Sequence record: OL656110.1
DNA length: 64,000 nt
From: Escherichia phage vB_EcoM-RPN242
Reading direction: 5' to 3' (one strand)
Part shown: positions 45,261-62,992 of the stretch, piece by piece
Layout of the letters: every line of letters begins with the position of its first letter
Position numbering within the stretch: position 1 is the stretch's first letter
Position numbers and translations under genes: made by a program
Notes under the pieces: model-generated
The model's database searches: none
The model's input: the letters and a program-made list of their open reading frames with translations, nothing else
What the model was told of the DNA's origin: nothing

Positions 45261-46871
45261 ATGTTAGACAATATGAGATGGTTTTACGGCACCGTTGAAG
45301 ATGTCAACGATCCAGACCAAAATGGGCGAGTTGCTGTTCGCATATATGGCGTACACACCGACGATCCCGTCCTCCTGCCTACGGACAAACTCCCATGGGC
45401 GAAGGTACTGATGCCTGCTTCAAATGCCTCCTCTGCTGGTTTAGGTTGGTCTCCAACGGGTATCATTCCTGGTACTGAGGTTATGGGGTTCGCCCTTGAC
45501 GAAGCATACCAGAATTTACGCATCACCTGGACTTGGACTGGTTCAAGCCCTACTGATGGTGCCGACACAAACCCACTGGCTCTCGGGCAGGTCGTTCAAT
45601 CTGTAGAACGTCAGGCGTACAACGCTGTCACTGACGTTCCTGTGAAACAAGAAGACGAACCACAACCAGATCCACAACCACCTGTTGGTGGGTATGATCC
45701 AGAGAAGTGGATGACAATCGCTCGTGGCGAATTGGGTATCAAGGAGTACGCCGGAAAGTTCAACAACAACCCGCGCATTATAGAATATCACAAGACAACC
45801 TCCCTTGGTGCTTCTGAAGATGAAGTGTCGTGGTGTGCGGCGTTCGTGGGTTGGGTTATGATACAGGCTGGATACACGTCTACACGCTCCGCTCTTGCCC
45901 GATCTTACCTTACATGGGGCACTCCACTGTCAGCACCACAATATGGCGCTATCGTAGTCTTCCGGCGTGGTAACAACCCTACATTTGGACACGTAGCGTT
46001 TGTGCAGAAGTTCGATGCAAACTATGTCTGGTGTATTGGTGGCAACCAATCCGATTCAGTGAAGGTCAGTCGTTTCAGACGTTCTTCGGTCTTGGGATAT
46101 CGTTGGCCTGGTCCTGCTAACACAGCCACAGCCGCGCCTGCGCAGCAGAATGGTAAATGGTCAGAACCTATCCCAGATCGTACTCCAAAGGAACAACCGA
46201 CTCCGGCTCCTACTGGGCGAGTACAGGATATTGACAACACTGGAGAGACCATGGTTCCGGCTGCGGGTGGCTCCAAATACCCGTACAATAACGTCATGGT
46301 GTCCCGAGCTGGGCATATTATGGAAGTGGATGACACCCCTGGTGGTGAACGTCTTCACTGGATGCATAAGTCTGGGTCTTACAAGCAAATGTTGCCGGAT
46401 GGTGATGTGGTCAACAAGTCCGTCAAAGACCACTATGACCTGACGATGTTCAACAAGCGTTATTATGTCGGCGGGGACCACAACCTGACGGTCAAAGGAA
46501 CTGAAGTTCAGCGCAAGACAGGTGAGGTCTATCATTTGCATTCCAACAACTACTCAAATGTGGTTGCGGGCACAGCGCTGATGAAATTCAGTGACCTAGC
46601 GGAAATGCAAGCGCAGAATATTCTGCGCATTATCTGCGAGACTCTGGAGGTCGGTGGGACATTGAAGGTTCCTAAGATTCTAACGACTGAGATAATCGCT
46701 GACAAACTGACTGTCGCTCAGACGATCAATGGTAACATCATATATGCCGAAGGTGCTGGTCGCGCTTCTTCTCTGTCAGGTGCAACCCCTGCATCCCCTA
46801 CGGGTCCGGGTGAGATTGACATCAAGGCAGAATTAAAAGACAATGGTGGTAATTTCGGCACCAAAGAGTAA
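45261..46871 (+). CDS. baseplate central spike protein (gp5-like) with CHAP-type cell-wall hydrolase domain
   Basis: N-terminal RWFYGTVEDVNDPDQNGRVAVRIYGVHTDD (gp5/VgrG-like OB domain); central SWCAAFVGWV ... GHVAFV (CHAP-like Cys/His); C-terminal repetitive region. Confidence 0.65.
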   Translation: MLDNMRWFYGTVEDVNDPDQNGRVAVRIYGVHTDDPVLLPTDKLPWAKVLMPASNASSAGLGWSPTGIIPGTEVMGFALDEAYQNLRITWTWTGSSPTDGADTNPLALGQVVQSVERQAYNAVTDVPVKQEDEPQPDPQPPVGGYDPEKWMTIARGELGIKEYAGKFNNNPRIIEYHKTTSLGASEDEVSWCAAFVGWVMIQAGYTSTRSALARSYLTWGTPLSAPQYGAIVVFRRGNNPTFGHVAFVQKFDANYVWCIGGNQSDSVKVSRFRRSSVLGYRWPGPANTATAAPAQQNGKWSEPIPDRTPKEQPTPAPTGRVQDIDNTGETMVPAAGGSKYPYNNVMVSRAGHIMEVDDTPGGERLHWMHKSGSYKQMLPDGDVVNKSVKDHYDLTMFNKRYYVGGDHNLTVKGTEVQRKTGEVYHLHSNNYSNVVAGTALMKFSDLAEMQAQNILRIICETLEVGGTLKVPKILTTEIIADKLTVAQTINGNIIYAEGAGRASSLSGATPASPTGPGEIDIKAELKDNGGNFGTKE

Positions 46872-53257: not shown

Positions 53258-54052
53258 TTAACTGAAACTCTTGTATGCTGCTGCGAGCTTCGTGTCGTAC
53301 TGGTTCTTGGCATACGCCGGACCATTATAGCGCCGCGCAAACTCAGCCCAGTTCTTGTCCTTCAGAGCCTGCCAGAGCTTGGCGTCAGCCTTGATGAACT
53401 TCACGAATGCCATCAAATGAGCACGTTCTCCTGTCAGGAAGTCGTTGAACATCTCCTTGGCGTTGGCATATCCACAGACCTGGCAGTTGAATCCCATGAT
53501 CTGGAAGAGACCGTAAGAGGCGCTCTCGTACGCACAATCCTCATCAATGTTGATGGCCGCATGAAGTCGATCCAACTCCGCGTCGCCGCCCGTGTACCCG
53601 CCTGCAGAAGGGTTGACCAACGTCGGGTACATATGTCCCATGGCATTCGCCCGAGCCTGTCCGAACTTCGCCATCAGCTTTTTATACATGATGTGGCGCT
53701 CAAATAATGTCTTGATCTTACCTGACTTGGTGAAGCCCGTGCCGCGCGACTCAACCTGATTCACCGCCTTGACAGAGGCAAGGTCAACACCCAGATCGTT
53801 AGCAGCATCAATCAGGTCTGACTCAGTTAGATGATCCTGATGGGCGTCTCCGGCGTTGCGAATAGCATAGGAGGTCTTTGGACCCACGATACCATCAATG
53901 ACAAGCCCCGCACCCGCCTGAACAGTCTTGACGGCGTTCTCTGTTGCCTTGCCAAAGATACCATCAGCGACGAGGGTGAAGCCGATTTTGTTGAGGCTAT
54001 CCTGAAGTGCCTTCACTTCAGTACCACGGTTGCCAAATTTTAGAATGGCCAT
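53258..54052 (-). CDS. endolysin (N-terminal peptidoglycan-binding domain plus C-terminal muramidase-like domain)
   Basis: ATG 54052 with SD GGAGG; PG-binding-like LKFGNRGTEVKALQDSLNKIGF...DGIFGKATENAVKTVQ; C-terminal VESRGTGF...YGLFQIMG glycosidase-like motifs. Confidence 0.7.
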   Translation of the reverse strand: MAILKFGNRGTEVKALQDSLNKIGFTLVADGIFGKATENAVKTVQAGAGLVIDGIVGPKTSYAIRNAGDAHQDHLTESDLIDAANDLGVDLASVKAVNQVESRGTGFTKSGKIKTLFERHIMYKKLMAKFGQARANAMGHMYPTLVNPSAGGYTGGDAELDRLHAAINIDEDCAYESASYGLFQIMGFNCQVCGYANAKEMFNDFLTGERAHLMAFVKFIKADAKLWQALKDKNWAEFARRYNGPAYAKNQYDTKLAAAYKSFS

Positions 54053-54705: not shown

Positions 54706-55194
54706 TTAGGCCAGTTTGCTCACCAGAGCTTCAACTGCGTCGGCGCTCAGTTTACCCATTTTGACGTACTGAGCTTTTGCTTCACCACCAGCCGCTTTCA
54801 CGATGTCGGTGTTGTCGTACCCCTTCTTAGGGAATACCATCACAGAGAAGGAACCGTTGTTCAGCGGGTTCAGCTGGATGCGACCTTTACCGACTACGAT
54901 GGTGCCGTAAGTTTCGGTGTTTGCTTCGACAATGTGGATGTCGTGACCCAGGTTTTTCAGCATACCAACTTTGTCGGCAGTCTTAGCAACCACAGCTTTG
55001 TCAACCACAACCTGCTCTACCAGGGTGAAGCCGTTAGTCGATTTCACTTTACCGTTCAGCAGGTTCATGAAGGAAGTTTTGCCACCAGTGAAGCCAGCCG
55101 CCTGAGCGATGCGGAACATTTCAACTTTAGCAACTTCGGTGTTCAGTTCGAAAGAGATGGTGCCGTTGGTGATCAGAGTTTTGGTAGTAGCCAT
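54706..55194 (-). CDS. hypothetical protein (K/A/V/T-rich)
   Basis: ATG 55194 with SD GAGGA; leader contains GGCGG/CCGCC hairpin; antisense 220-aa ORF judged spurious. Confidence 0.5.
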   Translation of the reverse strand: MATTKTLITNGTISFELNTEVAKVEMFRIAQAAGFTGGKTSFMNLLNGKVKSTNGFTLVEQVVVDKAVVAKTADKVGMLKNLGHDIHIVEANTETYGTIVVGKGRIQLNPLNNGSFSVMVFPKKGYDNTDIVKAAGGEAKAQYVKMGKLSADAVEALVSKLA

Positions 55195-55333
55195 GATGTA
55201 ATTCCTCATAATGTAGTTGGTTCATTTCACTTTTCATTCGGCGGTGTGTTGCCGCCCTATGTGAACTATAATAGTGCATCATTATTGAAGAGTAAAGTCT
55301 TTTTCAATAATTTTTTAAAATATTTTTGAAGTA

Positions 55334-55361
55334 TTTTAAAAGGCCTCATTCGACGAGGCCT
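55334..55361 (-). terminator. candidate terminator downstream of primase operon
   Basis: 7-bp stem AGGCCTC/GAGGCCT with 7-nt loop, followed on minus strand by TTTAAAA. Confidence 0.4.
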
Positions 55362-55435
55362 GGAGGGAGGTGATGTGAAGTAAAAAGTTTTAGCTCGGGC
55401 GAAATCTTACAAACTCGCGAGCCAATTCGGCCTGT

Positions 55436-57319: not shown

Positions 57320-57673
57320 TTACGACAGCTGCTTCAGTTTGTAGATCGTCTGATAACACAGTGTCTTGATATCGTCAAGAGTGCTCTGAAGGTGGGAGTC
57401 ACACTGCTTGTAGATGCCATCGACGTCTATCACCACACTATTAATATAGGAGATAGGGTCTGGGTTGTACAATTTGATATTCTCGAATGATGGAACATAC
57501 TGACCACCCGCACCGATGTATGCTTCGGTAAACGTGTCCAGCAAGTCCTCTAGACCCCCGTAGAACTCCCCGAGTGCCTTGTGCTTGGCATAGGACGTTG
57601 TAACGAAGTGTAAGGCATGAGAGTGGGCTATAGCAAGCAGTCCACGGTTGATGAAAATACTCGCATTGACCAT
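57320..57673 (-). CDS. hypothetical protein
   Basis: ATG 57673 with SD GAGGAA (track start 57727 is GTG). Confidence 0.45.
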   Translation of the reverse strand: MVNASIFINRGLLAIAHSHALHFVTTSYAKHKALGEFYGGLEDLLDTFTEAYIGAGGQYVPSFENIKLYNPDPISYINSVVIDVDGIYKQCDSHLQSTLDDIKTLCYQTIYKLKQLS

Positions 57674-57685
57674 GATTTGTTTCCT

Positions 57686-57719
57686 CAGAAAAAGAAATCC
57701 CCCTGTATTTAGGGGGATT
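57686..57719 (-). terminator. rho-independent terminator
   Basis: 9-bp stem AATCCCCCT/AGGGGGATT, 6-nt loop, followed on minus strand by TTCTTTTTCTG. Confidence 0.55.
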
Positions 57720-57758
57720 GTAATCACTGTTTGACCAGAGTCATCTTGATAGTTTCAC

Positions 57759-58119: not shown

Positions 58120-60840
58120 TCAGATCTTAATCTGCATGTTGCCACCCAGGGACTGCTCGTACTCGCTGTATGCGCCTTCCCCGTAGTCTCGTGCCCACTG
58201 GTCAGACTGCTGGGCGCTATCCAGAGTCATCAGGTTTGGTTCAGTCGGGTTGTAACCCTTGGACTTCGCATCCCGGTACAGAGTCTGCAGGTACTGGTTG
58301 GCGCGGTCAATCTGAGATTTGAACTCGCGATATGCCCCTTCAGTTGTGTTGCGGCGGAAGGTGATATCCCAGTCCACGTTCAGAGTCTGACCATCACGGC
58401 TTGCATAGATCTGCCAATCCAGGTCGCGGCCTTTTGGTGCGTTGTCGCGGATGGAGTCGGCGTATGCCGCAAGGTCGGCACCAGTCTTCTTCGCAGTACT
58501 CGACTCTTTCTCCAGTCTCTCGGTTTCTTTGGACAGGATACCCAACATAAATTCATTAGTGCGGCGATCCGCCATGTCGTACCCGCGCCAAAGGACTGAA
58601 CCGTTGTTGTCAACAGAAATGTCGTCCAAAAATACTTGTTTCGGATTATACGACGTGCTTTTCAGAGTTTGTATATTCCGAGATATCATTTCCATTTTAG
58701 AAGAAATTTCATCGATCACGGCCTGAACAATATCTTTCTTCAAAGTAAGTTCATATGTCTTCGGATTGTTCAGGGTACGACCTTTATTGGATACAATAGG
58801 CGTGATCGCCACTTTGCCTTTGTCGTAGTAATAGGTCACATTCGTGGTCAATACAGCACCATCATACTTCCCAGTTTTCGGGAAATTGACGCCAGACCAA
58901 GTGATGGACATACCGTTGACAGTCTCACCAAACACCATGGCGTTGCTTGGTATATTCAGGGTTCCAGAGTTGACCAGATCAGCGCCTTGGGCATTCAGGT
59001 CGATAGAACCATAGATGGCCCCGGTAATACGATCTTTCAGCATCAGGGTCTTGTCGCCCTTCTCTGGGATGATTTCCAGCGGGTGCTTGCCACGCGGAGG
59101 TTCTTTGATGAGTTCCAGTAGAGCAGTTTTCCCTGGCTTCACACGATTCAGGACAGCGTCGGACACTGTCAGAGTCCAGTTTGCGGTTTCCACATAACCC
59201 CAGCCCCGAGAACGGCGAATGGCTTTGATAGGATATGGAGCGCTTGTTGGCACTGCGCTAATTTCCCATTTGCCAGTGTACTGGGTCTTGGCAACCTCAA
59301 AGATGGACGCAATTACCGCATTGGCGACGTCACGGGCGCTACCTTTGGCCACGTTCTCCTCTTCAGCAATTTCGCTGAAAACTGAGTATTGAACGAAACC
59401 AGCGAGGACGTTTGTGAAGTTGACAACGATAACCAACCCGCCTGCTGTCGTGTAACGACCAGCGCCCACACGACGGATGTTTTCACCAGGAAGAATAGAA
59501 GTGTCCAGCCCAACGTTGGTATCAATGATACCCAGAACACGAGCGATGAAACCACTGTTACGTAATTGATCAACACTGGTTGCACCCTCGGTCGAATCCG
59601 ATGCGGATTTAGACACTTTGTTCAACTTGATAGAGACAAGGGTTTCCCCGTTGACACCGATGATATCCCATTCAGTACCCTGCTCGTTCGAGATGCGAGC
59701 AGTCTTGCGCTTTGAATTGATGGCACCTTCGTAACGCCCGTTCTTGACTACAACAGAGGCTGTGGCAGCATCAGTAGCACTTGCTGCATTTGAAAAGTCT
59801 GGGTCAGAAATACTGATGTCGACGTCACCGTTTTGAGAACGCATGCGAACGCCGTTTTTGAATCGTTCCACGTTTACTTCTCGAGCACCAAGTCGTTTGG
59901 CATCAATAACAGCAGTTCCAGAACCGATAATGTTGGCTGGGTTATTTCTGTCTGAACTGTTTTGAGAACCTTTCCAAAATTTTGTGGACGCTGTGGTGAA
60001 ATCATTCAGGATACTGATAGGGACTTGTGGTAATTTCAACTGACGAGCAATGAAATCAGCACTTTGCCCACGCACAGGTTTCTCATTCATGTATGCGCCA
60101 ACATACACACCCGGCTCATTGTAGTGGGGAGCGATATTTGCCGTGTTCATGCGGCCTCTCTCCTTACCAGCCCATAACAACATGGGCTGATCTCCGTTTG
60201 AAGTTAATTTCCATCCGTTGGAATTATCAACAGAAGATGACACACCCACATCCGGAGTATTGTTCTGAACCGGAACGTCACCGACCTTGTCTGGATCATC
60301 CCAGGTGATACCCTGCATCTTCGGACCGTCGAATACCTGAGCCGGATCTTTACCCTTGCGGACCAGCCACACATAACCACGGTCAGGGACAGGCGCGTAG
60401 GTCAGGTCCATGACATTCAGTTTCTGTTTCAGGCCGGACTGGCGGATGATCTTAGGAATCAGGGTCATACCGCGATCCAGCGCTTTCTTCGAGAAGTTGA
60501 CAGCAAAGCCATCGATGGTTTTGCCCAGAGGAGTCGCCATGAATTGTTTGGTCGCTTCGATCATGGAAGCGATAACGCGCATTGGGTTCTTGAAGCGAGC
60601 GATGGCGTCAGGATAGACGGAGCCGCGCTTCTGGCCGATGAAAACCTGACGAACACTCTTACCCAGCCCCTGAGGGGTATAGAACTGAATACGGTATTCC
60701 TTTTCATCTTCGTCGACGAAGGTGAAGAACACATCGCCTGCGTTCTTCTTACCCATGGTCAGCTCATACGGAGCGGAGTTGAACGCTTCGTCCAACTGAT
60801 CTCTTTCCTGCATGAACTGGAGGAAACTTAGCTTTGACAT
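58120..60840 (-). CDS. large hypothetical protein (906 aa)
   Basis: long ORF with SD AGGAGA; no recognisable catalytic motif. Confidence 0.6.
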   Translation of the reverse strand: MSKLSFLQFMQERDQLDEAFNSAPYELTMGKKNAGDVFFTFVDEDEKEYRIQFYTPQGLGKSVRQVFIGQKRGSVYPDAIARFKNPMRVIASMIEATKQFMATPLGKTIDGFAVNFSKKALDRGMTLIPKIIRQSGLKQKLNVMDLTYAPVPDRGYVWLVRKGKDPAQVFDGPKMQGITWDDPDKVGDVPVQNNTPDVGVSSSVDNSNGWKLTSNGDQPMLLWAGKERGRMNTANIAPHYNEPGVYVGAYMNEKPVRGQSADFIARQLKLPQVPISILNDFTTASTKFWKGSQNSSDRNNPANIIGSGTAVIDAKRLGAREVNVERFKNGVRMRSQNGDVDISISDPDFSNAASATDAATASVVVKNGRYEGAINSKRKTARISNEQGTEWDIIGVNGETLVSIKLNKVSKSASDSTEGATSVDQLRNSGFIARVLGIIDTNVGLDTSILPGENIRRVGAGRYTTAGGLVIVVNFTNVLAGFVQYSVFSEIAEEENVAKGSARDVANAVIASIFEVAKTQYTGKWEISAVPTSAPYPIKAIRRSRGWGYVETANWTLTVSDAVLNRVKPGKTALLELIKEPPRGKHPLEIIPEKGDKTLMLKDRITGAIYGSIDLNAQGADLVNSGTLNIPSNAMVFGETVNGMSITWSGVNFPKTGKYDGAVLTTNVTYYYDKGKVAITPIVSNKGRTLNNPKTYELTLKKDIVQAVIDEISSKMEMISRNIQTLKSTSYNPKQVFLDDISVDNNGSVLWRGYDMADRRTNEFMLGILSKETERLEKESSTAKKTGADLAAYADSIRDNAPKGRDLDWQIYASRDGQTLNVDWDITFRRNTTEGAYREFKSQIDRANQYLQTLYRDAKSKGYNPTEPNLMTLDSAQQSDQWARDYGEGAYSEYEQSLGGNMQIKI

Positions 60841-61357: not shown

Positions 61358-61996
61358 TTACGGCGTCGGATTCACAACCGGAATGTGGGATCGAATACCT
61401 GCGATGATGTCCTTCAGCTGAGGCTTCCATCCATCCACCAAACGGGGTAGAGCGATAGCACCAGGCTGAACTAAAATGATGTCGCTGCCTGTGATATTGT
61501 GCTGAGGGAACTGGGCAAGGTACTGCTCCATGGTGACACCCTCATCAATCAGAACCGCACCGACGTCAGACGATGCGTAGGTTGCACCCAGACCGTCAAC
61601 ACCCCACGCCAAAATACCCCAGTCAGGGATGTTGGCTTCAGATGTGATAGTGAATCCAAACACGGTGTTCAGTGATGTAAAGGAGTAGACATCGTGGGTG
61701 ATGTCATACACCAGATACCCCTTGGTCAGCATATCGGCAAAGATCGCGTCCGTATCGCCAGCAGTCGGAGTCGGTACAGTAAACAACAGCTCGCCATCAG
61801 GAGGAGCAGGGTATGTGCTGAGGGCATAGAGGCACCATGCGTCAATACACTTCTTGATAAATGCCTCCGGTGCGACATAATCAGCAAGGCGAACCGTACC
61901 TGAGTACTCGGATACGATGATGCCTTCCTTCGCACCCTGTAGAGCAATGAAGACCAAGATATGTTCATATCCGGCCTGAGATGGAGTGATGTTCAT
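61358..61996 (-). CDS. hypothetical protein
   Basis: ATG 61996 (aa 33 of track ORF) overlapping upstream stop by 1 nt. Confidence 0.45.
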   Translation of the reverse strand: MNITPSQAGYEHILVFIALQGAKEGIIVSEYSGTVRLADYVAPEAFIKKCIDAWCLYALSTYPAPPDGELLFTVPTPTAGDTDAIFADMLTKGYLVYDITHDVYSFTSLNTVFGFTITSEANIPDWGILAWGVDGLGATYASSDVGAVLIDEGVTMEQYLAQFPQHNITGSDIILVQPGAIALPRLVDGWKPQLKDIIAGIRSHIPVVNPTP

Positions 61997-62610
61997 TATC
62001 TTGTCCTCTTCAGTTTCTCTATTGTGTGCTTGTTCATGGTGATCACCTGAGGATCTACCTCGGAGATGGTCCGGCCTTCGAAGGACACACATTTCTGAAG
62101 ATATTTAGCTTTCTTCACGACGTCGGCAGCATAAGCGTTCGATGCAGGATTACGGGCGAAGCCAGCATTGTAAGAGGAGAGGGATTTGCGGATATTCTGA
62201 TTGTGATAGGTCAGCCAGAACTGCATCTCATCGAGGGCGGCTTGCGCGGCATATTCTTGGTCGGTCAGCAACTTTATAGCGACATTGGCATAGCACTTGC
62301 GATTCTTACAACCTTCGCGATCACCAACTGTCTTCACCTTGTTCTGAAAGGCTCCCATGTTGGCCGCCTTGAGGTCGTATCGCATTGACACTACATCTTC
62401 ACCAGCGCGGCTCTCTCGCCAAGATATGGCGGCCAGAGTGTAGCCAAGATCTTGTGTCTTGCCTACGTGATAGGCGGTTGCCAGCGTATTAAGTTGTTGC
62501 TCGGAGAAATTATAATCGCATTGGGTGGTACTTTGGGAAGCGTGCACATTCCCGCTGGCAATGGTAAAGGTCACGGACAAGGCCATGGCCTTCAACGTTG
62601 TCATCGTCAT
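61996..62610 (-). CDS. secreted lytic transglycosylase-like (SLT) protein with signal peptide
   Basis: signal-peptide-like N-terminus MTMTTLKAMALSVTFTIASGNVHA; SLT-like motifs ISWRESRAG, MGAFQ, SYNAGFA; SD AAGGAA. Confidence 0.55.
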   Translation of the reverse strand: MTMTTLKAMALSVTFTIASGNVHASQSTTQCDYNFSEQQLNTLATAYHVGKTQDLGYTLAAISWRESRAGEDVVSMRYDLKAANMGAFQNKVKTVGDREGCKNRKCYANVAIKLLTDQEYAAQAALDEMQFWLTYHNQNIRKSLSSYNAGFARNPASNAYAADVVKKAKYLQKCVSFEGRTISEVDPQVITMNKHTIEKLKRTR

Positions 62611-62667
62611 GATGGCGTTCCTTATGTTTTGTCGACTTGCAGCTCGCTTGAGCCTCCTGACAGGGGT

Positions 62668-62702
62668 TAAAAGATAAAGGGCACGTGGTATTTAGTGCCC
62701 TT
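62668..62702 (-). terminator. rho-independent terminator
   Basis: 8-bp stem AAGGGCAC/GTGCCCTT with 10-nt loop, followed on minus strand by TTATCTTTT. Confidence 0.55.
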
Positions 62703-62707
62703 CAGCC

Positions 62708-62992
62708 TCATTCGTAGATGAGGTGGTAGGATTCCTCGATACACTCCAGCCAGCCGTAGACGAACTGTAGAGGGTCATCCCATGCCGTCTTGGTCGCGAC
62801 GGTAAAGTTGCCGTCCAGGATCTGCATATCTTGGTACTTGTTGAAAGCGAGTACAGCATCAACCACAATCAGGCCGCCCTGCTCAAGATAACGATTCGGA
62901 GTGACGGTCACTTGGTAATGAGGATTCCTGCGATTCCATATCTCCACAGCAATGTCACAGGATTCCTGAATTTCATCTTTGTTTTCTGACAT
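62708..62992 (-). CDS. hypothetical protein
   Basis: 94-aa ORF. Confidence 0.4.
   Translation of the reverse strand: MSENKDEIQESCDIAVEIWNRRNPHYQVTVTPNRYLEQGGLIVVDAVLAFNKYQDMQILDGNFTVATKTAWDDPLQFVYGWLECIEESYHLIYE

What the first reader, a model, noticed from the sequence alone, without database searches (positions are those of the whole stretch)
61996..62610. Signal-peptide SLT-like lytic transglycosylase, a third muralytic function
A predicted secretory signal precedes SLT-type motifs (ES, GAFQ, YNAG). The phage also encodes an endolysin (53258-54052) and a CHAP-domain spike (45261-46871). A secreted transglycosylase could act in the periplasm during lysis or superinfection control, or be virion-associated.
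Basis: partly seen in the sequence, partly recalled or inferred. Interest (0 to 1): 0.5.

Follow-up and report, generated by a model that had tools for sequence, protein, structure and literature searches.

The report
Exported phage cell-wall cutter, mislabelled RegB
This phage gene encodes a small secreted enzyme predicted to cut the bacterial cell wall; it is the counterpart of the long-known but never tested T4 gene vs.1, is wrongly labelled "RegB RNase" in many databases, and is an ordinary member of a family found in over 2,000 phage genomes.

Summary
Window 61996-62610 (minus strand) is a real, conserved 204-aa gene in an Ackermannviridae phage. It has an N-terminal Sec-type signal peptide and all four family-1 lytic transglycosylase motifs: E66-S67, G86-AFQ, S146-YNAG, Y160.

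It is not new. It is the orthologue of T4 Vs.1 (phrog_600), whose SLT similarity was published by 2006, and homologues occur in 2,127 phage records. Many Ackermannviridae records call it "RegB", but it shows no similarity to RegB. That label probably arose because vs.1 and regB are adjacent genes in T4.

Best reading: a Sec-exported, soluble periplasmic lytic transglycosylase. It is probably transcribed late, from a TAAATA promoter inside a terminator loop, and is translationally coupled to a virion protein gene (DUF7270). It would act on the cell wall independently of the holin, as an accessory to the separate muramidase endolysin. Its role in infection is untested.

Virion proteomics conflict: 31 spectra in Sajous1, none reported for Vi01 or LIMEstone1.

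One unexplained extra: the leader plus the first 32 codons are nearly invariant at synonymous sites across genera.

The parts
62539..62610 (-). Codons 1-24: predicted Sec signal peptide (MTMTTLKAMALSVTFTIASGNVHA), with cleavage predicted after VHA
   Evidence: Tripartite n/h/c organisation by inspection. 90% of 181 family sequences have an N-terminal hydrophobic segment. pLDDT is below 50 for residues 1-28.
61999..62538 (-). Mature protein, residues 25-204 (20.3 kDa, pI 9.2): a GH23/SLT-like catalytic domain plus a 30-residue basic C-terminal tail. The stop codon is at 61996-61998.
62410..62415 (-). E66-S67: predicted catalytic glutamate and the following serine (LT motif I)
   Evidence: E is present in 146/146 distant relatives and S/T in 146/146. 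It aligns with the AWNES segment of EtgA.
62344..62355 (-). G86-A-F-Q89 (LT motif II)
   Evidence: G86 is present in 138/146 distant relatives; position 89 is Q or H.
62161..62175 (-). S146-Y-N-A-G150 (LT motif III)
   Evidence: Y147 and G150 are each present in 145/146 distant relatives.
62131..62133 (-). Y160 (LT motif IV)
   Evidence: Present in 145/146 distant relatives.
62518..62520 (-). C31, putative disulfide partner of C174 (62089-62091). C101 and C106 (62308-62310, 62293-62295) form a CxxxxC pair that is rare outside the close Ackermannviridae relatives.
   Evidence: Cysteines near positions 31 and 174 co-occur among distant relatives: 71 have both, 52 neither, 23 only one (Fisher 3e-17, not corrected for phylogeny). 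The bond itself is inferred.
62618..62623 (-). Shine-Dalgarno sequence AAGGAA, 7 nt before the ATG
   Evidence: Sequence; invariant in 5 genomes.
62669..62702 (-). Hairpin AAGGGCAC-(TAAATACCAC)-GTGCCCTT followed by TATCTTTT: a terminator-like element with the late-promoter core TAAATA (62689-62694) in its loop
   Evidence: Sequence. At least 10 of 17 TAAATA sites in the window lie <=100 nt upstream of a same-strand start, against 0-23% for permuted hexamers. The element is invariant in 5 phages. An annotated terminator lies at the same place in Klebsiella phage May, and LIMEstone1 annotates a late promoter upstream of the orthologue.
61358..61996 (-). Downstream gene for a DUF7270 protein (212 aa). 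Its ATG overlaps the LT stop codon by one base (TAATG), which implies translational coupling.
   Evidence: Pfam DUF7270 E=4e-111. The overlap is visible in the sequence. The orthologue is a confirmed virion protein in LIMEstone1 (ORF085) and a 'phage associated protein' in Vi01. The same gene pair occurs in 6 genomes.
62501..62709 (-). Block conserved at the nucleotide level, comprising the leader plus codons 1-32
   Evidence: Reaches 99% identity per 100 nt to Vi01, against 73-86% in the other aligned segments. Synonymous sites are frozen: 27/28 vs 56/133 identical codons, p=2.8e-8. No RNA-fold signal.

Best explanation
The gene encodes a small, single-domain, family-1 (GH23, SLT-type) lytic transglycosylase of the T4 Vs.1 family.

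Shown by computation: the fold, the four LT motifs with an invariant catalytic Glu66, an N-terminal signal-peptide-like segment shared by the family, and orthology to T4 Vs.1.

Inferred: the precursor is exported by the Sec pathway and cleaved after Ala24. The 20-kDa basic mature enzyme folds in the periplasm, probably with a Cys31-Cys174 disulfide. There it cleaves MurNAc-GlcNAc bonds of the host sacculus, forming 1,6-anhydroMurNAc ends.

Because export is holin-independent, the enzyme reaches the wall before the holin fires. It is therefore most likely a low-level accessory wall-weakening or remodelling activity, not the main lysis enzyme. That job belongs to the PG_binding_1 + muramidase endolysin at 53258-54052.

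In this phage the gene is probably insulated from upstream early/middle transcription by a terminator hairpin. It would be read from a gp55-type late promoter (TAAATA) embedded in that hairpin's loop, together with the translationally coupled virion gene DUF7270.
For: Family: phrog_600 E=1.7e-59. T4 Vs.1 shows 29% identity over 171 aa, E=2e-18. T4 Vs.1 passes the Pfam SLT threshold, and 16/42 relatives hit SLT at E<=0.01.

Catalytic residues: E66 146/146, S/T67 146/146, Y147, G150 and Y160 each 145/146.

Export: the signal-like N-terminus occurs in 90% of 181 family members, and most exceptions look like truncated gene calls. pLDDT is below 50 for residues 1-28. The Cys31/Cys174 pair co-occurs. 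T4 Vs.1 has MRKALLAGLLAISMMAHS|S.

Timing: TAAATA motif statistics, the conserved hairpin and promoter, and the coupled downstream gene being a virion protein.

Separate endolysin and CHAP hub.

Distribution is phage-only: 0 hits in 72,556 plasmids, and the single 'bacterial' locus found is a T4-like phage contig.
Against: No enzymology or localisation data exist for any family member in the searchable literature.

The direct Pfam SLT score is 0.8 bit below the gathering threshold. The signal peptide was judged by inspection and a crude heuristic, not by SignalP.

One CsCl-purified virion preparation (Salmonella phage Sajous1) gave 31 spectra for the orthologue gp211. That fits poorly with a purely periplasmic protein.

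In T4 the orthologue is early-RNA/middle-protein, so late timing is not a family trait. In Klebsiella phage May the promoter core reads TAATTA. In Serratia phage Kevin the intergenic element is absent.

By textbook knowledge, T4 e mutants do not lyse, so this family cannot substitute for an endolysin. The proposed 'lysis accessory' role is an inference.
Confidence: 0.6

Rival explanations
1. Virion-associated peptidoglycan hydrolase. The protein is packaged into the particle, in the baseplate or tail lumen, with its hydrophobic N-terminus uncleaved. It would supply the glycan-cleaving activity that the CHAP (peptidase-type) gp5 hub lacks during entry.
Against: It was not among the 39 LIMEstone1 virion proteins, although its neighbour ORF085 was. 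Vi01_097c is left as 'hypothetical protein' while its neighbours are marked 'phage associated'. A canonical cleavable Sec signal conserved across the family and a co-occurring Cys pair argue for export, and virions assemble in the cytoplasm. To my knowledge T4 Vs.1 is not a known T4 virion component, and it is made early/middle. Peptide-level data for Sajous1 could not be retrieved, so contamination by a basic, peptidoglycan-binding protein cannot be excluded.
Confidence: 0.12
2. A non-lytic envelope role. The periplasmic enzyme locally remodels or nicks peptidoglycan for something other than lysis. Examples are interference with superinfecting phages, modulation of lysis timing or lysis inhibition, or clearing space for a phage-encoded envelope complex, as the specialised LTs of secretion systems do.
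For: The closest solved relative by sequence profile is the T3SS-specialised LT EtgA. The T4 orthologue is produced early/middle, long before lysis. In Felixounavirus the homologue sits directly after rIIA-rIIB and about 1.2 kb before the spanins. The family is conserved in more than 2,000 virulent phages that all have their own endolysin.
Against: There is no conserved partner gene across phage families. No envelope-spanning phage apparatus is known that needs it. The probable late promoter in this phage places it with lysis and structural genes. There is no experimental hint in the searchable literature.
Confidence: 0.15
3. RegB-type sequence-specific endoribonuclease, as annotated in many Ackermannviridae GenBank and UniProt records.
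For: Only annotation supports this: 'RegB', 'endoribonuclease' or 'site-specific RNA endonuclease' on orthologues, and a 2011 report of a Pfam RegB-family hit for the phiSH19 orthologue, listed there with clan CL0037.
Against: There is no REGB_T4 hit even at E<=1, while T4 RegB itself scores 8e-69. BLASTP against T4 RegB gives E=0.25 over 21 residues. The fold is lysozyme-like. The real relative is Vs.1, the gene adjacent to regB in T4. A signal peptide makes no sense for a cytoplasmic mRNA nuclease.
Confidence: 0.01
4. A catalytically dead peptidoglycan-binding protein that has kept the lysozyme fold.
For: Activity has not been measured for any member. The Pfam score is marginal.
Against: The catalytic Glu and all four LT motifs are essentially invariant over about 150 diverged relatives. 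That pattern is what selection on catalysis would produce.
Confidence: 0.05

Closest known systems
Bacteriophage T4 Vs.1 (gene vs.1, T4p112, UniProt P13311; PHROG 600)
   Same: Orthologous family: 29% identity, E=2e-18. The size class is the same (181 aa in T4 against 204 aa here). Both have a cleavable-looking signal peptide and the same E-S, G-x-F-Q, S-Y-N-x-G and Y motifs. Similarity of Vs.1 to SLT was already published (PMC1524935).
   Different: T4 Vs.1 has no cysteines and lacks the 30-residue basic C-terminal tail. It is transcribed early, with protein appearing in the middle period. It lies between regB and vs rather than upstream of a DUF7270 virion gene.
EtgA / IagB / IpgF-type 'specialised' lytic transglycosylases of type III secretion systems
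   Different: Those enzymes are encoded in secretion-system loci and, from the EtgA literature, are activated by a rod protein. This family was found only in phage genomes. A related search of 72,556 plasmids, which carry the type IV secretion LTs, found nothing.
Slt70 / Slt / MltF / MltE catalytic domains (family 1 lytic transglycosylases)
   Different: No superhelical, ABC-type-binding or lipoprotein-anchor modules. Only the bare catalytic domain is present, with about 15-19% identity.
Virion-borne phage lytic transglycosylases (T7 gp16 N-terminal domain)
   Different: From general knowledge, these lack signal peptides and are structural parts of the particle. Here the virion evidence is conflicting.
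Sec-dependent phage endolysins (signal-peptide type such as Lys44 of fOg44; SAR type such as P1 Lyz)
   Same: A phage muralytic enzyme that reaches the wall without a holin (general knowledge).
   Different: Those are the phage's only endolysin. This phage has a separate cytoplasmic muramidase endolysin. The hydrophobic core here is about 13 residues with an AXA-type site, which indicates a cleavable signal peptide rather than a ~20-residue SAR anchor.
T4 RegB endoribonuclease (PF10715)
   Same: Nothing but the database label and gene adjacency in T4.
   Different: No sequence or fold similarity.

Membership tests
Family 1 lytic transglycosylases (GH23; Pfam SLT PF01464) | Significant match to the SLT profile | tested here: inconclusive
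   This protein scores 20.5 bits, E=3.8e-4, just under the 21.3-bit cut-off. T4 Vs.1 scores 25.1 bits, above the cut-off. 16/42 relatives match at E<=0.01, best 2.1e-7.
Family 1 lytic transglycosylases (GH23; Pfam SLT PF01464) | Goose-lysozyme-like all-alpha catalytic fold | tested here: met
   [not shown]
Family 1 lytic transglycosylases (GH23; Pfam SLT PF01464) | Catalytic Glu followed by Ser (motif I), plus motifs II (G-x-x-Q), III (A/S-Y-N-x-G) and IV (Y) | tested here: met
   E66-S67, G86-AFQ89, S146-YNAG150 and Y160 are present. E66 occurs in 146/146 distant relatives, Y147, G150 and Y160 each in 145/146.
Family 1 lytic transglycosylases (GH23; Pfam SLT PF01464) | Non-hydrolytic cleavage giving 1,6-anhydroMurNAc products | not testable with these tools
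   Needs purified enzyme on sacculi with HPLC-MS of the products.
T4 Vs.1 family (PHROG 600) | Full-length match to the family profile and to T4 Vs.1 itself | tested here: met
   phrog_600 E=1.7e-59 over residues 7-179. BLASTP to T4 Vs.1 E=2e-18, 29% identity over 171 aa.
T4 Vs.1 family (PHROG 600) | N-terminal signal-peptide-like segment | tested here: met
   Heuristic test on 181 members: 90% have a hydrophobic N-terminal segment, and 83% also have a basic n-region and a small -3/-1 site. Not run through SignalP.
T4 RegB endoribonuclease (Pfam REGB_T4 PF10715) | Match to the RegB profile or to T4 RegB | tested here: not met
   No hit at E<=1. T4 RegB scores 8.1e-69 in the same library. BLASTP gives E=0.25.
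Specialised LTs of secretion systems (EtgA/IagB/IpgF, VirB1/P19) | Encoded within a T3SS, T4SS or conjugation locus | tested here: not met
   The gene lies in a phage replication/late-gene block. No plasmid homologue was found. The only genome-collection hit is a phage contig.
Virion-associated peptidoglycan hydrolases | Physical presence in purified virions | tested here: inconclusive
   Literature only. 31 spectra in Sajous1 (PMC10892097). Absent from the LIMEstone1 list (PMC3296691). Not flagged in the Vi01 annotation.
SAR endolysins | Uncleaved, weakly hydrophobic ~20-residue signal-anchor-release domain on the sole endolysin | tested here: not met
   By inspection, the hydrophobic core is about 13 residues with a VHA|S site. 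A separate endolysin is present.

The most novel reading that the evidence does not exclude
Synthesis of this potentially self-harmful exported wall-cutting enzyme may be governed by a previously undescribed cis element. The roughly 200-nt block at 62501-62709 comprises a terminator with an embedded late promoter, the leader, and the first 32 codons. It is almost invariant, including at synonymous sites, across Ackermannviridae genera. It could act at the DNA or RNA level, or it could encode the antisense 38-aa membrane-like peptide at 62561-62677. More broadly, Vs.1-family enzymes would represent a holin-independent peptidoglycan-remodelling step shared by T4-like, Vi-like and FelixO1-like phages that has never been studied.
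Probability: 0.2. Interest if true: 0.55.

Novelty: new member of a known kind. Interest (0 to 1): 0.3.

Why it matters
There are three practical points.

First, about 270 Ackermannviridae genomes carry this gene, and many of the listed records label it RegB, endoribonuclease or plain hypothetical protein. A proteomics paper consequently filed it under "DNA/RNA processes". The label should be "Vs.1-family lytic transglycosylase (predicted, exported)".

Second, the family occurs in more than 2,000 sequenced virulent phages, including T4. It is predicted to place a wall-cleaving enzyme in the periplasm without a holin, yet its role has never been tested. T4 genetics would make this an easy experiment.

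Third, Ackermannviridae such as CBA120 and the Kuttervirus and Limestonevirus phages are used for biocontrol. A small, basic, naturally exported muralytic domain may interest enzybiotic work.

None of this changes current concepts, so the finding itself is ordinary.

Tried and rejected
- **RegB identity.** Rejected by Pfam, BLASTP and fold.
- **Direct PDB sequence search.** No hit. Only profile searches reached EtgA.
- **NCBIfam.** No model matches this protein, DUF7270 or T4 Vs.1.
- **Plasmid search (tblastn).** No match, so no link to conjugation LTs.
- **Bacterial genome scan.** It gave one locus, which is a T4-like phage contig. The broader alignment A2 was too diverse for that tool.
- **Hyperconserved leader and 5' coding block.** Rfam found only a sub-threshold chance hit, located elsewhere in the scanned interval. 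The single-sequence fold is no better than shuffles (z=+0.82). RNAalifold shows no compensatory changes. A stable RNA structure is therefore not supported, and the conservation remains unexplained.
- **Sajous1 peptides for gp211 versus gp212.** The supplementary peptide table is truncated in the held copy, so this could not be checked.
- **Literature searches for experimental work on vs.1 or on the Ackermannviridae orthologue.** They found only the 2006 comparative-genomics note.
- **LIMEstone1 late promoter annotation.** The annotated coordinates upstream of ORF086 point to CTCATC. The TAAATA core lies about 28 nt downstream of them.

Full report
**What the window is.** The 2.1 kb around the finding is 98.5% identical to Escherichia phage A221 and matches 271 phage records, all of the Vi01-like family Ackermannviridae. 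The target lies in a long run of minus-strand genes: gp46/gp47 recombination nuclease, gp55 late sigma factor, RNase H and primase.

**The observation.** ORF 61996..62610 (minus strand) encodes 204 aa. It starts at an ATG preceded by AAGGAA. The N-terminus MTMTTLK/AMALSVTFTIASG/NVHA|SQ has the n/h/c layout of a signal peptidase I substrate, with no lipobox and no twin arginine.

Window 45261-46871 is a gp5-OB + CHAP baseplate hub, and 53258-54052 is a PG_binding_1 + N-acetylmuramidase endolysin.

**Is it a lytic transglycosylase?** Directly, Pfam SLT scores 20.5 bits (E=3.8e-4), 0.8 bit below the curated cut-off. The family evidence is much stronger:

- The protein belongs to PHROG 600 at E=1.7e-59.
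- A profile of its relatives finds 799 cluster representatives among 1.84 billion proteins.
- 16 of 42 sampled relatives hit SLT at E<=0.01.
- In 146 distant relatives, Glu66 is invariant, position 67 is always S or T, and Y147, G150 and Y160 are each present in 145 of 146.
- The top-ranked Foldseek hits are GH23 or other lysozyme-like enzymes.
- By sequence profile, the only solved structure near significance is the T3SS lytic transglycosylase EtgA (E=0.0045). The E-S segment aligns with EtgA's AWNES.

I therefore accept it as a GH23/family-1 LT-type enzyme. The chemistry (anhydro-product formation) is untested.

**What family is it really?** Many orthologues are annotated "RegB" or "site-specific RNA endonuclease". 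A 2011 paper reported a Pfam RegB-family hit for the phiSH19 orthologue, listed with clan CL0037.

I fetched T4 to test this. The protein has no similarity to T4 RegB (E=0.25) and no REGB_T4 hit, whereas RegB itself scores 8e-69. It is 29% identical (E=2e-18) to Vs.1, the gene immediately next to regB in T4. T4 Vs.1 also has a signal peptide (MRKALLAGLLAISMMAHS|S) and passes the SLT threshold.

The SLT similarity of vs.1 was already reported by Nolan et al. 2006 (PMC1524935), who cite an earlier PSI-BLAST match of T4 vs.1 to lysozyme (their ref. 15) and suggest "some role in cell lysis". Some records already say "lytic transglycosylase".

tblastn finds homologues in 2,127 phage records. The hosts include Escherichia, Klebsiella, Salmonella, Vibrio, Shigella, Aeromonas, Acinetobacter, Enterobacter and Erwinia, and the phages include Ackermannviridae, T4-like phages, Felixounavirus and Vibrio phages. 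There were none in 72,556 plasmids. The only hit in the bacterial genome collection is a 178-kb T4-like phage contig with vs.1-vs-tk synteny. The family therefore appears phage-specific and is old news at the level of "SLT-like ORF".

**Export.** Three lines of evidence support export:

- A crude n/h/c test finds a hydrophobic N-terminal segment in 90% of 181 family members. Most exceptions look like 5'-truncated gene calls.
- Cysteines at positions 31 and 174, near the two ends of the domain, co-occur in distant relatives: 71 have both, 52 neither and 23 only one (Fisher 3e-17, not corrected for phylogeny). This fits a periplasmic disulfide.
- The mature protein would be 20.3 kDa with pI 9.2.

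**Timing and operon.** The hexamer TAAATA, the core of the T4 late promoter TATAAATA, occurs 17 times in the window. At least 10 of these sites lie within 100 nt upstream of a same-strand start codon, against 0-23% for permuted hexamers. They include the sites upstream of the gp5 hub and the endolysin.

One site, CTAAATACC at 62689-62694, lies 79 nt upstream of the LT start. It sits in the loop of a GC-rich hairpin (62677-62702) followed by TATCTTTT, directly after the stop codon of the upstream gene. The element is invariant in LIMEstone1, CAU_YEP3, Sajous1 and Vi01. It is annotated as a terminator in Klebsiella phage May. LIMEstone1's authors annotated a late promoter upstream of the orthologue, although their coordinates are offset.

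My reading is that upstream early/middle transcripts stop at the hairpin. Late transcripts would start inside the hairpin and so escape it. The same design occurs at 57706.

The LT stop codon overlaps the start of the next gene by one base (TAATG). That gene is DUF7270 (E=4e-111), whose orthologues are virion proteins in LIMEstone1 and Vi01.

By contrast, T4 vs.1 is early RNA and middle protein. Serratia phage Kevin lacks the intergenic element altogether. Timing is therefore lineage-specific.

**Virion or periplasm?** Sajous1 CsCl-purified virions gave 31 spectra for gp211, which I confirmed is the orthologue. The protein is not among the 39 LIMEstone1 virion proteins, whereas its neighbour ORF085 is. 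Vi01_097c is not flagged as particle-associated, although neighbouring genes are. I could not retrieve the Sajous1 peptides. A cleavable Sec signal and a likely disulfide make true packaging unlikely. Carry-over of a basic peptidoglycan-binding protein is a plausible explanation, but the point is open.

**Most likely mechanism.** The steps are Sec export, cleavage after Ala24, and a soluble periplasmic LT that nicks glycan strands independently of the holin. It would act as an accessory to the muramidase endolysin rather than as the lysis effector. By textbook knowledge, T4 e mutants do not lyse despite having vs.1.

My confidence that it is an exported, active LT is about 0.6-0.7. My confidence in the specific "lysis helper" role is lower. 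Gene neighbourhoods differ between phage families: regB/vs in T4, rIIB/pnk/spanins in Felixounavirus, DUF7270 here, and unknowns in Vibrio phage K368. No conserved partner points to a mechanism. DUF7270 itself has no informative structural match.

**An unexpected extra.** Between this phage (Aglimvirinae) and Kuttervirus (Sajous1, Vi01), coding DNA here is 55-85% identical. From 62709 down to about 62501 the identity is 93-100%. This stretch covers the hairpin, the leader and the first 32 codons.

In codons 1-32, 27 of 28 same-amino-acid codons are nucleotide-identical, against 56 of 133 in the rest of the gene (p=2.8e-8). Against Vi01 the p-value is 7.9e-9, and against Klebsiella phage May it is 0.0015.

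The 221-nt block is at least 80% identical in 271 of 272 matching records and at least 90% in 220 of them. The surrounding 2.1 kb is only 60-80% identical in 193 of 271 records.

There is no Rfam hit in the block, no excess folding energy (z=+0.82) and no covariation. A 38-aa TM-like ORF on the opposite strand (62561-62677) lies entirely inside the block and is annotated in phage A221. I have no evidence that it is expressed.

Two other blocks of the same kind exist within 12.5 kb, at 55001-55372 and 57528-57726. Each spans a terminator, a promoter and the 5' end of a gene. This is unexplained.

**Verdict.** This is an ordinary member of a known but experimentally untouched phage family, and its common database name is wrong.

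Noticed in passing
window 62501-62709 (minus strand): The leader plus the first 32 codons of the LT gene are 93-100% identical between subfamilies, while flanking coding DNA is 55-85% identical. Synonymous sites are frozen (27/28 vs 56/133 identical codons, p=2.8e-8). No Rfam hit in the block, no excess fold stability and no covariation.
   Followed up: partly
window 55001-55372 and 57528-57726: These are the only two other blocks in a 12.5-kb comparison with Vi01 that reach >=93% identity per 100 nt. Like the LT block, each starts with a terminator hairpin and a promoter and runs into the first 30-65 codons of a minus-strand gene.
   Followed up: partly
window 62561-62677 (+ strand): An antisense small ORF of 38 aa (MVKVTDKAMAFNVVIVMMAFLMFCRLAARLSLLTGVKR) with a transmembrane-like segment lies entirely inside the hyperconserved block. 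It is annotated as a CDS in phage A221 (UTQ72619.1). It has a weak ribosome-binding site, and I found no evidence of expression.
   Followed up: no
window 62677-62702 and 57695-57720 (minus strand): The late-promoter core TAAATA sits in the loop of a GC-rich terminator-like hairpin followed by a T-run (AAGGGCAC-TAAATACCAC-GTGCCCTT-TATCTTTT and CCCCC-TAAATACA-GGGGG-ATTTCTTTTT). This is a compact 'stop early transcripts, start late transcripts' arrangement. At least 10 of 17 TAAATA sites in the window sit in promoter position.
   Followed up: partly
window 62099-62107 (minus strand, LT codons 168-171): An internal CTAAATATC is kept at the nucleotide level in 7 of 7 Ackermannviridae examined, including the distant Serratia phage Kevin. 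It lies about 105 nt upstream of the DUF7270 start codon and may be an internal late promoter for the virion gene.
   Followed up: partly
[not shown]
   Followed up: yes
window 58120-60840 (minus strand): A 906-aa protein with no Pfam hit (phrog_3867). Its Sajous1 orthologue gp214 was the second most abundant 'assembly' protein in virions (196 spectra). In LIMEstone1 it is split into ORF081 and ORF082, both confirmed as virion proteins. It is a major uncharacterised structural protein encoded among replication genes.
   Followed up: no
L009 (NZ_JBHSCL010000010.1, Flagellimonas marina assembly): This 178-kb contig in a bacterial genome assembly carries endolysin, PhoH, phrog_600 (Vs.1), vs and tk genes in T4 order. 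It looks like a T4-like phage genome rather than bacterial DNA.
   Followed up: partly
L002 6698-7186 (Escherichia phage A221): The closest relative's annotation starts the LT gene at an internal codon (162 aa). This removes the signal peptide and creates an artificial gap, in which the antisense small ORF was then called.
   Followed up: no
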